Shown here: in pieces, positions 39,001 to 42,000 of the stretch
Position numbering within the stretch: the stretch's first letter is position 1
How the letters are laid out: each line of letters opens with the position of its first letter
Source of the DNA: Escherichia coli
GTDB taxonomy: Bacteria > Pseudomonadota > Gammaproteobacteria > Enterobacterales > Enterobacteriaceae
Reading direction: 5' to 3' (one strand)
NCBI RefSeq assembly: GCF_041248615.1
Contig: NZ_CP158426.1
DNA length: 64,000 bases
Made by a program: the position numbers

Positions 39001-42000
39001 ATCCTGACTCATTTCAGGCAGAATCAGCAGGCCGTCCAGCCCTTCATGGCTTGCCATAAAGCGAAAAGAAGTGGATAGCTGACTGTCGCGTACATGCTCC
39101 AGCCGTTCCAGACATGGCTTAATCGTCTCACGCAAATAGCGGGAATAAGCCTTTGGCCTGCCAAGGCTACTGAAGTATTCAATACGTTGCATCAGCGGCT
39201 TGCTGATATGGGAGGGCTGGGCGCTGACGTCTGCCAGAATGACCATGTCCGGGTTAAAACGCTGCTGCTCATGCGCCAACTTTGCCCGGCTAATGAGCTT
39301 ATCCTGCTCCATTTCGCGCTGGACAGGATCACGGGATTCATTAAAGAAATAACGCTCCCAGACCTGATCACTCAGTGCCTCGCGGCGCAGTTGTTCCTGC
39401 TCGTTATCGGCAGCGTACAGAGTGATCAGGTTTGAAAGCGCAGAAACCGGCGCAACTTCCGCCGGGTCCAGATAAGGGTTAATAGCCTTTTTCGGGCTGT
39501 TCCATGAGAATGCTGCGGCGGCCTCGTTAAAGCCGCTGCAGTTGTTCATATCAGCATGGCTCATGCACGCACTCCGTACACGGCAGAACTATCCACGCCA
39601 CGCGAAGGATCAAATCCCACCCAGCAGCGCGCCCCAGAAACAGCGATGATTTCTGTTGCAGATTTACTCTCACCAGTTGCTACGCCGATGCTGCGTTTTG
39701 CCTTGATGTAGTGGTGAGTAAAATTGCGATACAGCGAACGGATCAGGGATGTGTCACTGTTAGAAACAATGACCGGATGTCCTTCTGATGACCGATGTTC
39801 AAGAACGGATGCCAGGTGATACTGGTCATCTTCAGTGAAGCCGTCAGTGTGATAACCGGAAAACGTGCCGTCATACGGCGGATCGCAATACACCACATCC
39901 CCCGCCTTCAACATCGCCAGCGTTTCATCAAAGCTGGCGCAGATAAACGTTGCCCGCTGGGCTTTTTCTGCAAATGCGCGAATTTCTTTTTCAGGGAAAT
40001 ACGGATTTTTATAATTACCGTAGGGAATGTTGAAATGCCCGCTCTTGTTATAGCGACATAAACCACGGTAACCGTGACGATTGAGATACAGGAAATATAC
40101 CGCTTTCATGAAATCAGTAATTTCAGTTGAGTAATTAAACTCCTGCCTTATGTTGTAATAAGCCACCTCCCTGTTTGCTTCCTCAAATAAAGCTCTGGCG
40201 CGAGATATAAACAATTCACAATCAGCGGCAACCTTTTTATAGAGGTTGATTAAATCAGGATTAATATCCGCAACCAGATAGCTGGGGTAATCCGTCTCCA
40301 TCATCACTGCACAGGAACCCGCGAAAGGTTCAACCAGTCGCGGGCCAGCAGGAAGGTGTTTTTTCAGTTCTGGCATAATGGCGGTTTTATTTCCCGCCCA
40401 TTTCAGGATGGTGCTCATACAGCACCTCCGTTGTAATGTTTGCCTTTCAGCTCTGCGATTTCCTGACAGGTAATGCAAAGCTGCACTCCAAGAATGGCGC
40501 GGCGTCGTGCTGGCGGAATTGGCGCTTCACATTCAATACAAAGCACGCGGGACACGCCCGGCGTTTTGGCACGGGCAGCACGGATATGACGCTGGCGTTC
40601 TTCTTCAACGCGCTGCTGTACGAGATCCATTGCATCAGCCATCAGTGGATCTCCTGCGCTTCGTTCTGGATTGCTTCAGCAGTCACACGCAGCAGTTCTG
40701 CCGCTTCGACGTGGTTTAGCTGGCGGGATGTGATATGACACGCAAGACTATCAAGGCGGGCAGCCATTGCTTCAGCCCTTGCCCGGCGTTCTTCCAGACG
40801 AGCCTCTGTCAGTAAAATATTAAGCCCTGCGTCATCCGGTCCGGTTTTGGTCGTGAGGGTTTCAATATTACGCATAATCAATTCTCCTGAATTTAGATAA
40901 AGGGATGCCTGGCGGGTTTACGCCATTAATTTCATTAGTTGGTTAATTCGGCATGGTTAGCCGTCTGGGAAATAAGCTCACCACTGCACGAAAATGATTC
41001 ATTGCTTTAATCAACTCCCGCTTTTCGTCAGTGGTCAGCTCATTAATGCTGATGCTATGACGTTCAGCTGGAATTTTTGCCATAAAGAATATGGCAGCCA
41101 GTGCCCGTTTATTTTGTTCGCTATTAATATCCCGTGGATCACGCATATCTTTAATAAACCGTTCAAGCTCTGACTCAATATTCAGACCAAAAACTTTCGC
41201 CCTTAACTCCGCAATGTGATTAAGTCCATTCAGGCGTTCACCGGGGCTTAATGGAACAGTCGCCGCAGCGCCTTCAATAGCCATTTGTTCCCCCGTTTTT
41301 TCGTAGATAGTTCTGCCAGCAATTCATCTTGTGAACGGCACGGATGCCAGCGTTTACCATCCTCACCCATGATCCAGCCGTGACCGTAGTGCATTGCCGG
41401 GCTTTGTTTAACAAGCAGCGATGCAAATGATGGTTCTTTCGTAAGCATAAGCACCTCACAGCAAACCGAATGAAGCACCGAGGCCAGTCACGGTATCAAC
41501 TGCACTCGCCATCGCAGGGTTAGCCTGTAAACGGGCCTGCAATGAAACAGCAGCCAGCGCCATCAGTCGTGTTACAGAGTTAATGCTGCTGATAGCATCA
41601 CGACGACCTGCACTGGTTTTTACATCGCCAGATACCGCACCTGCAGCAACACGCCCGATCTCTGCGGTTGCACTCATGACGTAATGCGGCAGTTTCTCTT
41701 TTGCTACCTCATTAATCGGAACACATGGCAGGCAGTGAATCTGTGCCAGAAAACCATCTACCAGCGTTGAATCTTCAGTCAGATCGGTAAGCAACCAAAT
41801 TTCTGGTGCGGTTAATAAATGAGGTTGAGCTGGGTTCAGTTTGTTCCGCAGAATCTGCACATTCATACCTGCACGTTCTGCCAGTTGCACCAGATTGTGG
41901 CGCAGTGCGAATGCACGACAGGCTTCATCAAAATGTGGATGTTTGGAAACTTGGTAATCAAACATGGTCAATGCCTCTGATGTATTTCAGAATCGAACTA

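What the first reader, a model, noticed from the sequence alone, without database searches (positions are those of the whole stretch)
39561..40642. Translationally coupled zinc-finger, Dam methylase and replication initiator genes
The TraR/DksA-type zinc-finger gene, the DPPY-motif adenine methylase gene and gpA overlap each other by 4 nt (ATGA-type junctions), suggesting coupled expression in the early operon. A phage Dam could protect progeny DNA from GATC-targeting restriction or modulate host methylation-dependent processes in the lysogen.
Basis: partly seen in the sequence, partly recalled or inferred. Interest (0 to 1): 0.4.

Follow-up and report, generated by a model that had tools for sequence, protein, structure and literature searches.

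The report
Prophage Dam methylase beside replication gene
This is the ordinary, already annotated early-gene block of a very common P2/186-type E. coli prophage, in which a small RNA-polymerase-binding zinc-finger protein, a Dam-type DNA adenine methylase and the replication initiator are chained by 4-base start/stop overlaps.

Summary
On the minus strand, a 75-aa TraR/DksA zinc-finger gene (40415-40642), a 285-aa D12-class Dam methylase gene with a DPPY motif (39561-40418) and gpA (37150-39564) are joined by two ATGA overlaps. A TGATG overlap links the upstream DUF2732 gene.

The window is E. coli NRZ14408. The genes lie in the CI-repressed early operon of a 34-kb 186/Fels-2-type prophage, 97% identical here to Salmonella phage RE-2010. 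RefSeq annotates all three genes the same way, and this Dam gene occurs in 1231 of 5426 complete E. coli genomes.

The overlaps are not unusual in this prophage: 6 of 36 same-strand neighbour pairs overlap by 4 nt. They are conserved in relatives, and the phage 186 record notes that translation to the end of the gene upstream of A appears necessary for A translation. Coupling is therefore plausible but untested here.

GATC specificity is inferred: 46% identity to E. coli Dam, with six of seven DNA-contact residues kept. An effect in the lysogen is unlikely.

Two extras: relatives use the zinc-finger-to-gpA interval for alternative DNA-modification genes, and a conserved terminator-like hairpin lies 124 nt into gpA.

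Novelty: already known. Interest is low.

The parts
40415..40642 (-). TraR/DksA-type C4 zinc-finger gene (75 aa), homologue of 186 Orf80 and P2 Orf82
   Evidence: PF01258 E = 9.6e-9. TIGR02419 scores 59.7 bits, at its cut-off. phrog_54. PDB matches to YbiI (1.3e-9) and TraR (7e-8). D3, D6 and the four Cys (C35, C38, C56, C59) are invariant in the alignment with TraR, 186 Orf80 and P2 Orf82.
39561..40418 (-). Orphan Dam-family (D12 class) N6-adenine DNA methyltransferase gene (285 aa); DPPY encoded at 39873-39884
   Evidence: PF02086 E = 3e-77. TIGR00571 E = 7.9e-97. E. coli Dam structures such as 2g1p match at E = 3e-73, with 46% identity. Best PADLOC model is 'orphan methyltransferase'. PGAP names it 'DNA adenine methylase'.
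37150..39564 (-). gpA rolling-circle replication initiator / replication endonuclease gene (804 aa)
   Evidence: PF05840 E = 1.4e-127. phrog_91 'nicking at origin of replication'. The EPHHDGTxHWH and YxAKYISKN motifs are invariant across six gpA proteins.
40642..40875 (-). DUF2732 gene, first gene of the overlapping chain; joined to the zinc-finger gene by a TGATG 1-nt overlap
   Evidence: PF10809 E = 3.2e-29. Junction sequence. Homologue of 186 Orf79 and P2 Orf80.
40415..40418 (-). ATGA junction: zinc-finger stop codon and Dam start codon
   Evidence: Sequence. The -4 spacing is kept in 69 of 74 related loci; the others have an inserted ORF.
39561..39564 (-). ATGA junction: Dam stop codon and gpA start codon
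   Evidence: Sequence. The -4 spacing is kept in 50 of 57 related loci, some as GTGA. Phage 186 has the same ATGA junction between orf84 and A.
40406..40429 (-). Predicted RNA hairpin that pairs the Dam Shine-Dalgarno sequence (GGAGG, 40425-40429) with Dam codons 2-5; the AUG sits in the loop
   Evidence: The 24-nt hairpin has -12.9 kcal/mol. The 120-nt context has z = -5.5. 96.8% of cells are paired across 37 distinct homologues, with only wobble-compatible changes and no compensatory pairs. Its accessibility is not an outlier among the prophage's starts.
39572..39575 (-). GGAG Shine-Dalgarno sequence of gpA, inside the 3' end of the Dam gene; a small hairpin pairs the gpA AUG
   Evidence: Sequence. 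Hairpin of -11.0 kcal/mol with AUG unpaired probability 0.09. The 120-nt context is not significant (z = -1.15).
40898..40924 (-). Homologue of the phage 186 tR1 terminator (GGCG-TAAACC-CGCC hairpin) between the DUF5347 and DUF2732 genes, just upstream of the chain
   Evidence: Sequence match to the annotated 186 tR1. The stem is weak and the fold is not significant on its own.
42292..42320 (-). Candidate early lytic promoter pR (TTGACG, 17-nt spacer, TATGTT) in the cI/apl intergenic switch; a GATC abuts the -10 hexamer
   Evidence: Consensus scan and sequence. Its position corresponds to pR of phage 186. This is a consensus match only.
39340..39441 (-). Long hairpin (39352-39441) plus U-rich tract (39340-39351) inside gpA, starting 124 nt after its ATG; candidate intragenic terminator or attenuator
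   Evidence: Inverted repeat I1. MFE -47.8 kcal/mol, z = -3.9, 0 of 200 shuffles fold as well. 92% of cells are paired in 50 distinct homologues, with compensatory changes at two pairs (4 and 12 sequences). Positional analogue of the 186 tM1 terminator.
37522..37549 (-). Probable replication origin (nick region) inside gpA
   Evidence: 28-nt match, 82% identical, to the P2 ori nick region, at the position that aligns with the P2 nick in the gpA protein alignment. This is an inference.

Best explanation
This is the replication-proximal part of the early lytic operon of a 186/Fels-2-type P2-family prophage. The prophage spans about 10192-44362 and sits between ybjL and rcdA in E. coli NRZ14408.

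After CI repression is lifted, transcription from the candidate pR promoter would read apl, cII, fil and DUF5347. It would then pass a tR1-like hairpin into a chain of four overlapping genes: DUF2732, a TraR-like zinc-finger protein, Dam and gpA.

- The zinc-finger protein most likely binds the RNA polymerase secondary channel, as F-plasmid TraR, lambda Orf73 and P2 Orf82 do, and shifts host transcription.
- Dam is an orphan adenine methyltransferase, most likely GATC-specific. Being made together with the replication initiator, it would raise methylation capacity while phage DNA is copied by rolling circle. Progeny DNA would then leave fully methylated: protected from methylation-sensitive GATC-cutting enzymes, and not left hemimethylated or unmethylated for host GATC-reading systems.
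- The ATGA overlaps let ribosomes that finish one gene start the next, so gpA output is tied to translation of the gene in front of it.

Shown here: gene identities, geometry, conservation and operon context. Inferred: GATC specificity, coupling, and the benefit to the phage.
For: - **Identities.** Supported by Pfam, NCBIfam, PHROGs, PDB searches and PGAP annotation.
- **Prophage type.** 97% nucleotide identity to Salmonella phage RE-2010 (Felsduovirus) with the same gene order and overlaps. CI, Apl, CII and Fil homologues of phage 186 are present.
- **Dam.** 46% identical to E. coli Dam. DPPY is kept, as are the equivalents of K9, Y119, L122, R124, P134 and Y138. The roles of these residues in GATC recognition are described in PMC4417163. 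No nuclease gene is adjacent.
- **History.** The reference list of PMC7826664 cites Hsu, Inouye and Inouye 1990, whose title describes a 34-kb retron-Ec67 element as encoding 'Dam methylase functions'. It also cites Dodd and Egan 1996, which places that retron in a 186-related prophage.
- **Zinc finger.** D3 and D6 of the DxxDxA motif and all four Cys are conserved. P2 Orf82 and lambda Orf73 were tested as TraR-like regulators in PMC9239242.
- **Coupling.** ATGA junctions are kept in 69 of 74 and 50 of 57 relatives. Every alternative cassette found in this interval is also chained by a 4-nt overlap. The 186 record notes that A translation depends on translation to the end of orf84, and annotates a terminator (tM1) for untranslated A. 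Hairpins mask the Dam Shine-Dalgarno sequence and the gpA AUG.
- **Slot content.** In relatives the same interval holds a C5 methylase, a PAPS-reductase-like protein, or a protein matching the PHROG family annotated 'queuine tRNA-ribosyltransferase', which I read as DpdA-like. This fits a DNA-modification role.
- **Phage Dams in general.** They are described as anti-restriction functions, and host Dam as limiting for high-copy DNA, in the retron preprint read.
Against: - No experiment or methylome was available for this protein.
- Specificity rests on homology. N120 is replaced by R. SAM-binding motif I reads FAGSC rather than FxGxG. Five residues after DPPY are deleted relative to E. coli Dam.
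- The host already makes Dam, so the added benefit is unproven.
- GATC is only mildly under-represented in the prophage: 112 sites, observed/expected 0.73.
- Each gene has its own good Shine-Dalgarno sequence. The predicted masking of the Dam Shine-Dalgarno sequence (unpaired probability 0.21) and the gpA AUG (0.09) is not extreme among the 44 prophage starts.
- 4-nt overlaps are common throughout this prophage.
- Close relatives without Dam exist (L064, L093). The 186 record calls Orf79-84 'not essential'.
Confidence: 0.6

Rival explanations
1. Dam is an exchangeable passenger cassette with little benefit in E. coli. The overlaps simply reflect compact phage gene packing and shared descent, not functional coupling.
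For: - 15 of 36 same-strand gene pairs in the prophage overlap, 6 of them by 4 nt.
- Dam-less relatives with otherwise similar early operons exist (L064, L093).
- The 186 Orf79-84 genes are annotated 'not essential'.
- Every gene in the chain has its own Shine-Dalgarno sequence.
- Start-site accessibility is unexceptional.
Against: - The Dam ORF is intact and present in 1231 of 5426 complete E. coli genomes.
- It is also found across several Peduoviridae genera directly upstream of gpA.
- The -4 junction survives sequence divergence, including ATGA to GTGA changes.
- The 186 record reports dependence of A translation on the upstream ORF.
Confidence: 0.2
2. The phage Dam is mainly regulatory. 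It would methylate GATC sites in the phage's own control regions, such as the pR/pL switch, to time development, rather than protect DNA.
For: - Two GATC sites lie in the cI/apl intergenic region, one directly abutting the candidate -10 hexamer of pR.
- Both are kept in all 20 loci with the same immunity region, including one only 88% identical.
- In this window the gpA hairpin stem carries a GATC:GATC duplex.
Against: - The 186 switch region has no GATC.
- Only 25 of 50 relatives keep the GATC pair in the hairpin, although they still encode Dam.
- The 20 switch homologues are too closely related to show selection.
- Host Dam would methylate these sites anyway.
Confidence: 0.12
3. The methylase has a specificity other than GATC, or is catalytically inactive.
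For: - Only 46% identity to E. coli Dam.
- N120 is replaced by R, motif I reads FAGSC, and five residues after DPPY are deleted.
- The NCBIfam Dam equivalog model (NF008152) scores 288.6 bits against a cut-off of 441.
Against: - The main base-contact and intercalating residues (R124, L122, P134, Y119, K9, Y138 equivalents) and DPPY are conserved.
- The TIGR00571 Dam subfamily model scores 324 bits against a cut-off of 115.
- The ORF is intact and conserved in hundreds of prophages.
- A 1990 paper title ascribes 'Dam methylase functions' to a Dam ORF in a 186-related prophage (cited).
Confidence: 0.08
4. Dam is expressed from the resident prophage and changes the lysogen's methylation-dependent physiology (lysogenic conversion).
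For: Prophage methylases that affect host phenotypes exist in other systems (titles listed).
Against: - The gene is about 1.9 kb downstream of the candidate CI-repressed pR and behind a tR1-like hairpin.
- No minus-strand promoter-like site was found between pR and the Dam gene.
- E. coli already methylates nearly all GATC sites: 99.9% in the SMRT data quoted.
Confidence: 0.05

Closest known systems
Salmonella phage RE-2010 (Felsduovirus) genes gp09-gp11, and the same block in Klebsiella P2-like phages and in the K. pneumoniae Kp52145 prophage
   Same: 97% nucleotide identity over 2 kb. The order is the same: DksA-like zinc finger (228 nt), DNA methyltransferase (858 nt) and gpA (2415 nt), with the same 4-nt overlaps. 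Table 3 of PMC7826664 lists identical gene lengths and overlaps for Kp52145.
   Different: The host is E. coli, and the immunity region and cargo genes differ. RE-2010 has a short repressor and an AIPR protein. This prophage has a 186-type CI, and a RES-domain protein and a P-loop NTPase as cargo.
Coliphage 186 early operon (Orf79, Orf80, Orf81, Orf83, Orf84, A)
   Same: The operon logic is the same: pR, apl, cII, fil, tR1, a DUF2732 gene, a TraR-like zinc finger, then A. The gene directly upstream of A overlaps it by ATGA. The record notes that translation to the end of that gene appears necessary for A translation, and annotates a terminator (tM1) early in A.
   Different: Phage 186 has no Dam. 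The interval instead holds an RNase T-like exonuclease, a DUF5405 protein and a PAPS-reductase-like Orf84. The gpA N-termini and the intragenic hairpins are not homologous.
E. coli Dam (EcoDam; PDB 2g1p) and other orphan Dam-family methyltransferases, including phage T4 and P1 Dam
   Same: D12-class domain over the full length, DPPY motif and conserved GATC-contact residues, with no partner nuclease.
   Different: Only 46% identity. N120 is R, motif I reads FAGSC, there is a 5-residue deletion after DPPY, and there is a different 25-residue C-terminal tail. The gene is phage-borne and lies in a lytic operon. Its specificity has not been tested.
F-plasmid TraR, lambda Orf73 and P2 Orf82 (small DksA-like RNA polymerase secondary-channel regulators)
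   Same: About 75 aa, a CxxC-17-CxxC zinc finger, N-terminal D3 and D6, and early-operon placement.
   Different: The motif reads DxxDxV rather than DxxDxA. Identity is 38% to TraR and 45% to P2 Orf82. Binding to RNA polymerase has not been tested.

Membership tests
Dam family (D12-class orphan N6-adenine DNA methyltransferases) | D12 methyltransferase domain over the full length | tested here: met
   PF02086 E = 3e-77, profile positions 1-253 of 253. TIGR00571 scores 324 bits against a cut-off of 115.
Dam family (D12-class orphan N6-adenine DNA methyltransferases) | Catalytic motif IV, DPPY | tested here: met
   DPPY at residues 179-182, aligned with E. coli Dam residues 181-184 and invariant in the five-sequence alignment.
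Dam family (D12-class orphan N6-adenine DNA methyltransferases) | SAM-binding motif I, FxGxG | tested here: inconclusive
   The motif reads F-A-G-S-C against F-V-G-A-G in E. coli Dam; the last Gly is replaced by Cys. The Gegavirus homologue has the same variant, so it is conserved, but its effect is unknown.
Dam family (D12-class orphan N6-adenine DNA methyltransferases) | GATC-recognition residues of E. coli Dam (K9, Y119, N120, L122, R124, P134, Y138) | tested here: met
   Six of seven are conserved (K6, Y117, L120, R122, P132, Y136); N120 is R118. Residue roles are from PMC4417163.
Dam family (D12-class orphan N6-adenine DNA methyltransferases) | Methylates the adenine of GATC | not testable with these tools
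   Needs expression in a dam- host followed by DpnI/MboI digestion or SMRT/nanopore methylome profiling.
Dam family (D12-class orphan N6-adenine DNA methyltransferases) | Orphan: no cognate restriction endonuclease adjacent | tested here: met
   The flanking genes are the TraR-like zinc finger and gpA. The best PADLOC model is 'orphan methyltransferase'.
TraR/DksA family (TraR-like small RNA polymerase secondary-channel regulators) | C4 zinc finger (CxxC...CxxC) of the DksA/TraR type | tested here: met
   PF01258 E = 9.6e-9. C35, C38, C56 and C59 are invariant. TIGR02419 scores 59.7 bits, exactly at its cut-off.
TraR/DksA family (TraR-like small RNA polymerase secondary-channel regulators) | N-terminal DxxDxA motif that reaches the RNA polymerase active site | tested here: inconclusive
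   D3 and D6 are present and A8 is V (MADAMDLV). P2 Orf82 also deviates (DxxDxI) and showed lower activity in PMC9239242.
TraR/DksA family (TraR-like small RNA polymerase secondary-channel regulators) | Binds RNA polymerase and alters rRNA and amino-acid promoter activity | not testable with these tools
   Needs in vitro transcription or complementation of a dksA deletion strain.
P2 gpA family (HUH rolling-circle replication initiators) | Phage_GPA domain with the HUH-type metal motif and the paired catalytic tyrosines | tested here: met
   PF05840 E = 1.4e-127. EPHHDGTxHWH and Y498-x3-Y502 (YIAKYISKN) are invariant in six gpA proteins.
Translationally coupled gene pair (as reported for 186 orf84 and A) | Downstream start codon overlaps or abuts the upstream stop codon | tested here: met
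   ATGA at 40415-40418 and at 39561-39564. The spacing is conserved in relatives.
Translationally coupled gene pair (as reported for 186 orf84 and A) | Downstream initiation site is masked unless the upstream gene is translated | tested here: inconclusive
   Hairpins pair the Dam Shine-Dalgarno sequence (-12.9 kcal/mol) and the gpA AUG (-11.0 kcal/mol). Pairing is 96.8% conserved, without compensatory changes. Accessibility values are not outliers among the 44 prophage starts.
Translationally coupled gene pair (as reported for 186 orf84 and A) | Downstream protein yield depends on upstream translation | not testable with these tools
   Only the 186 GenBank note is available as a precedent.

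The most novel reading that the evidence does not exclude
The interval between the TraR-like zinc-finger gene and gpA may be a plug-in slot for DNA-modification enzymes in 186/Fels-2-type phages.

Contents seen in relatives:
- Dam alone.
- A DUF3850/ASCH protein plus Dam.
- Dam plus a C5 cytosine methylase.
- Dam plus a PAPS-reductase-like protein.
- Dam plus a DpdA-like transglycosylase (my reading of a match to the PHROG family annotated 'queuine tRNA-ribosyltransferase').
- Nothing.

Every cassette is chained to the next gene by a 4-nt stop/start overlap. The replication initiator could then be translated only by ribosomes that have passed through the modification genes. A conserved hairpin plus U-tract 124 nt into gpA could end transcripts whose gpA is not being translated. 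Together these would tie the start of replication to the prior synthesis of the DNA-protecting enzyme.
Probability: 0.25. Interest if true: 0.4.

Novelty: already known. Interest (0 to 1): 0.15.

Why it matters
The finding itself matters little. The three genes are annotated exactly this way in RefSeq and in many phage records. The Dam gene is present in about 23% of complete E. coli genomes. A Dam methylase in a 186-related prophage was reported in 1990.

It is a useful reminder that about a quarter of E. coli strains carry a second, phage-borne Dam homologue. Methylome studies cannot tell it apart from host Dam, and Dam over-expression can trigger retron defence. If anything deserves follow-up, it is the slot architecture and the hairpin inside gpA.

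Tried and rejected
1. **EC958 M.EcoMIV.** I tried to use the ST131 methylome paper (PMC4659465), which reports a prophage 'Dam homolog', M.EcoMIV, as untranscribed in the lysogen. The EC958 region shows that gene is a 254-aa methylase in a Mu-like prophage, not this protein. It was rejected as evidence.
2. **Literature on specificity.** Searches for experimental specificity of this Dam (P2-like, Fels-2, STM2730, Peduoviridae) found only annotation-level mentions. The 1990 PNAS paper is not held.
3. **GATC avoidance.** Depletion in the prophage is mild (observed/expected 0.73; CTAG and GGCC are lower), so it says nothing about function.
4. **Dam-regulated switch.** Two GATC sites sit at the candidate pR, but 186 has none, and the 20 homologues are too similar to be informative.
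5. **Intragenic terminator across genera.** Only 186 (annotated tM1) and this lineage show a clear hairpin plus U-tract early in gpA. P2, Reipivirus, Irrigatiovirus and Firavirus gave nothing comparable in a crude scan.
6. **Rfam.** Nothing was found in the region; the only hit in the window is RybB.
7. **Antisense promoter.** The promoter-like match inside the Dam gene on the plus strand (39988-40015) was dismissed. Only 3 sites were found against 7 expected in shuffles.
8. **Structure prediction.** It was not run, because 46% identity to solved E. coli Dam structures makes the fold uncontroversial.
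Full report
**Observation**

All three genes lie on the minus strand. The 75-aa zinc-finger ORF is 40415-40642. The methylase runs 39561-40418 from its ATG. The mechanical ORF list extends it to a TTG at 40478, but the ATG is preceded by GGAGG and is the start used by PGAP and by the phage RE-2010 record. gpA is 37150-39564.

Read on the minus strand, the junctions are ...GGAGGTGCTGTATGAGC... and ...GGAGTGCGTGCATGAGC.... Both are ATGA overlaps of 4 nt. One gene further upstream, DUF2732 (40642-40875) ends in TGATG, a 1-nt overlap with the zinc-finger start. The chain therefore has four genes rather than three. DPPY is encoded at 39873-39884.

**Identity of the genes**

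- Zinc finger: Pfam PF01258 (9.6e-9). NCBIfam TIGR02419 (TraR family) scores at its cut-off. The best solved relatives are YbiI and F-plasmid TraR.
- Methylase: Pfam PF02086 (3e-77) and NCBIfam TIGR00571 (Dam family, 324 bits against a cut-off of 115). The best solved relative is E. coli Dam (3e-73).
- gpA: Pfam PF05840 (1.4e-127). PHROGs agrees on all three.

**Where it comes from**

The window is E. coli NRZ14408 (NZ_LT599825.1), at 100% identity. A 34-kb P2-family prophage runs from ogr (10192) to int (44362), between ybjL and rcdA.

Its early region is of the phage 186 type: CI repressor, Apl-like protein, CII, Fil and DUF5347. The 2-kb block around the finding is 97% identical to Salmonella phage RE-2010 (Felsduovirus) and 94-97% identical to many Klebsiella P2-like phages, with the same annotation.

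The gpA-to-apl block is found in 1347 of 5426 complete E. coli genomes. The Dam gene alone, at 80% coverage or more, is in 1231 of them. In the eight records listed it is annotated 'DNA adenine methylase', and seven of those list both a TraR/DksA regulator and a replication endonuclease beside it.

The same three gene lengths and overlaps are tabulated for a K. pneumoniae Kp52145 prophage in PMC7826664. That paper cites Hsu, Inouye and Inouye (1990) for a Dam methylase ORF in the 34-kb retron-Ec67 element, and Dodd and Egan (1996) for that element being a 186-related prophage. From memory only, the 1990 ORF was 285 residues and about 44% identical to E. coli Dam, which would match this protein. 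The paper is not held.

**Are the overlaps special?**

Within this prophage they are not. Of 36 same-strand adjacent gene pairs, 15 overlap and 6 overlap by exactly 4 nt.

They are conserved, however. I examined 80 IMG/VR loci whose gpA is 83-99% identical. The zinc finger>Dam spacing is -4 in 69 of 74 loci; the others carry an inserted ORF. The Dam>gpA spacing is -4 in 50 of 57 loci, including GTGA variants such as the Gegavirus phage ST15-OXA48phi14.1 at 76% nucleotide identity.

The best argument for function is a precedent. The phage 186 GenBank record (U32222.1) says of orf84, the gene overlapping A by ATGA: 'translation to end of orf84 appears necessary for translation of A protein'. It also annotates tM1, an 'expected terminator for lytic transcripts in absence of translation of A gene', 85-112 nt into A.

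**Structure around the starts**

Each start has its own Shine-Dalgarno sequence: AGGAG at 40651-40655, GGAGG at 40425-40429 and GGAG at 39572-39575.

The Dam Shine-Dalgarno sequence is predicted to pair with Dam codons 2-5, in a -12.9 kcal/mol hairpin with the AUG in the loop. The 120-nt context has a z-score of -5.5. Across 37 distinct homologues, 96.8% of cells in this helix pair. All changes are wobble-compatible, but none is compensatory.

The gpA AUG sits in a -11.0 kcal/mol stem. As a control, I computed unpaired probabilities for all 44 prophage starts. The Dam Shine-Dalgarno sequence (0.21) and the gpA AUG (0.09) are on the low side but not outliers. The structures are therefore compatible with coupling but do not prove it.

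**What the methylase probably does**

It is 46% identical to E. coli Dam over 263 residues. The residues that PMC4417163 describes as making the GATC contacts are conserved: R124, L122/P134, the intercalating Y119, K9 and Y138. N120 is R.

There are three other differences. Motif I reads FAGSC instead of FVGAG. Five residues after DPPY are missing. The 25-residue C-terminal tail differs; in Reipivirus and Irrigatiovirus homologues that tail carries four Cys.

No nuclease gene is adjacent. I put the probability of GATC specificity at about 85-90%.

The gene lies about 1.9 kb downstream of the candidate early promoter (TTGACG-17-TATGTT, 42292-42320) and behind a homologue of the 186 tR1 hairpin at 40898-40924. 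No internal minus-strand promoter-like site was found. Expression should therefore be lytic.

The likely role is to add methylation capacity while gpA drives rolling-circle replication. The retron preprint read notes that host Dam is limiting for high-copy DNA and treats phage Dams as anti-restriction functions. This role is inferred.

The prophage has 112 GATC sites (observed/expected 0.73), so there is something to methylate but no strong signal either way. A role in the lysogen is unlikely.

**The zinc-finger protein**

It aligns end to end with 186 Orf80 (67% identity), P2 Orf82 (45%) and TraR (38%). D3, D6 and the four Cys are invariant. The third motif position is V instead of A.

PMC9239242 tested P2 Orf82 and lambda Orf73 as TraR-like regulators of RNA polymerase, and linked deviations from DxxDxA to lower activity. 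By homology this protein is a TraR-like host-transcription modulator.

**Context found along the way**

The interval between the zinc-finger gene and gpA varies among close relatives:

| Content of the interval | Loci |
|---|---|
| Dam alone | most loci |
| DUF3850/ASCH protein, then Dam | L014, L026, L053, L085, and Yersinia phage MLG42 |
| Dam, then PAPS-reductase-like protein | L054, L056, L057, L084 |
| Dam, then C5 cytosine methylase | L092 |
| Dam, then 276-aa phrog_887 protein | L058-L062 |
| The phrog_887 protein with only a Dam remnant | L091 |
| Nothing | L064, L093 |

- The PAPS-reductase-like protein is of the same family as 186 Orf84.
- phrog_887 is annotated 'queuine tRNA-ribosyltransferase'. 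I read this protein as DpdA-like.

In the loci read in detail, the cassettes are chained by 4-nt overlaps; the two DpdA-like-to-gpA junctions rest on an assumed gpA start. In L064 the zinc-finger stop overlaps the gpA ORF start by 4 nt. Other Peduoviridae genera also place a D12 methylase directly upstream of gpA. This fits a DNA-modification slot in front of the replication gene.

**A hairpin inside gpA**

A 24-nt inverted repeat (39353-39376 and 39417-39440) forms the base of a long hairpin at 39352-39441, followed by UAUUUCUUUAAU. It starts 124 nt into gpA. The fold has -47.8 kcal/mol and z = -3.9, and none of 200 shuffles folds as well.

In 50 distinct homologues, 92% of cells pair, and two pairs show compensatory changes (CG to UA in 4 sequences, AU to GC in 12). 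Cells changed on both sides number 18 against 6.5 +/- 2 in shuffles. The caveats are that the sequences are related and that the structure was derived from one of them.

It is a positional analogue of the 186 tM1 terminator, not a homologue.

**Verdict**

The feature is an already known, very common prophage module. Interest is low. The slot architecture and the gpA hairpin are the only points that might repay further work.

Noticed in passing
window 39340-39441 (minus strand), inside gpA: A long conserved hairpin followed by a U-rich tract starts 124 nt after the gpA ATG. It has -47.8 kcal/mol and z = -3.9, and two base pairs show compensatory changes across 50 homologues. It is a positional analogue of the phage 186 tM1 terminator. 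It could instead be a single-strand DNA element used in rolling-circle replication.
   Followed up: partly
IMG/VR loci L014-L093, interval between the zinc-finger gene and gpA (e.g. L058:3346-4176, L084:4757-6001, L092:4826-6010, L014:4848-5150): Close relatives fill this interval with alternative cassettes: a DUF3850/ASCH protein, a PAPS-reductase-like protein, a C5 cytosine methylase, a DpdA-like protein (phrog_887), or nothing. The cassettes are joined by 4-nt overlaps in the loci read in detail. The gpA N-terminus changes together with the upstream cassette.
   Followed up: partly
window 32833-36242 (minus strand): Low-GC (0.36) cargo lies between the portal gene and the DinI-like gene, at the position of P2 tin/old. 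It comprises a RES-family NAD+ phosphorylase (384 aa, no PADLOC hit) and a 630-aa P-loop NTPase matching the PADLOC candidate defence family PDC-S49 (E = 3.7e-156).
   Followed up: partly
window 42265-42302 (cI/apl intergenic region): Two GATC sites lie in the lysis/lysogeny switch, one directly abutting the -10 hexamer of the candidate pR promoter. Both are kept in 20 loci with the same immunity type. The phage 186 switch has none.
   Followed up: partly
window 10036-10114 (plus strand): The RybB sRNA gene (Rfam RF00110, 104 bits) lies immediately outside the ogr end of the prophage. The attachment site may therefore be at or next to rybB.
   Followed up: no
window 17481-20999: The tail-fibre region carries a recombinase (invertase-like) gene and opposed tail-fibre assembly genes. 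PGAP marks two fragments here as pseudogenes: a partial 'integrase' (19494-19961) and a truncated tail protein (20610-20999). The tail-fibre gene may be disrupted or mis-assembled.
   Followed up: no
window 6195-6906 (minus strand): PGAP annotates the host nitroreductase gene nfsA as frameshifted.
   Followed up: no
L004:2965-3804 (Yersinia phage vB_YenM_42.18); L011:1753-1980 and 2270-3127 (Yersinia phage vB_YpM_MLG42): Intact Dam ORFs (279 and 285 aa), and in MLG42 the zinc-finger ORF, are present but not annotated in the deposited records. Small spurious ORFs are annotated in their place.
   Followed up: yes
window 39561-39638 (Dam C-terminal tail); L005:3850-3951; L006:3880-3978: The C-terminal extension of the phage Dam aligns with a four-Cys (CGGC...CPDC) tail in Reipivirus and Irrigatiovirus homologues. 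Here only one Cys remains, which may be a vestigial zinc ribbon.
   Followed up: no
L008:21788-22552 (E. coli EC958, NZ_HG941718.1): M.EcoMIV, the 'Dam homolog' of the ST131 methylome paper, is a 254-aa methylase in a Mu-like prophage. It is unrelated in context to the P2-family Dam studied here.
   Followed up: yes
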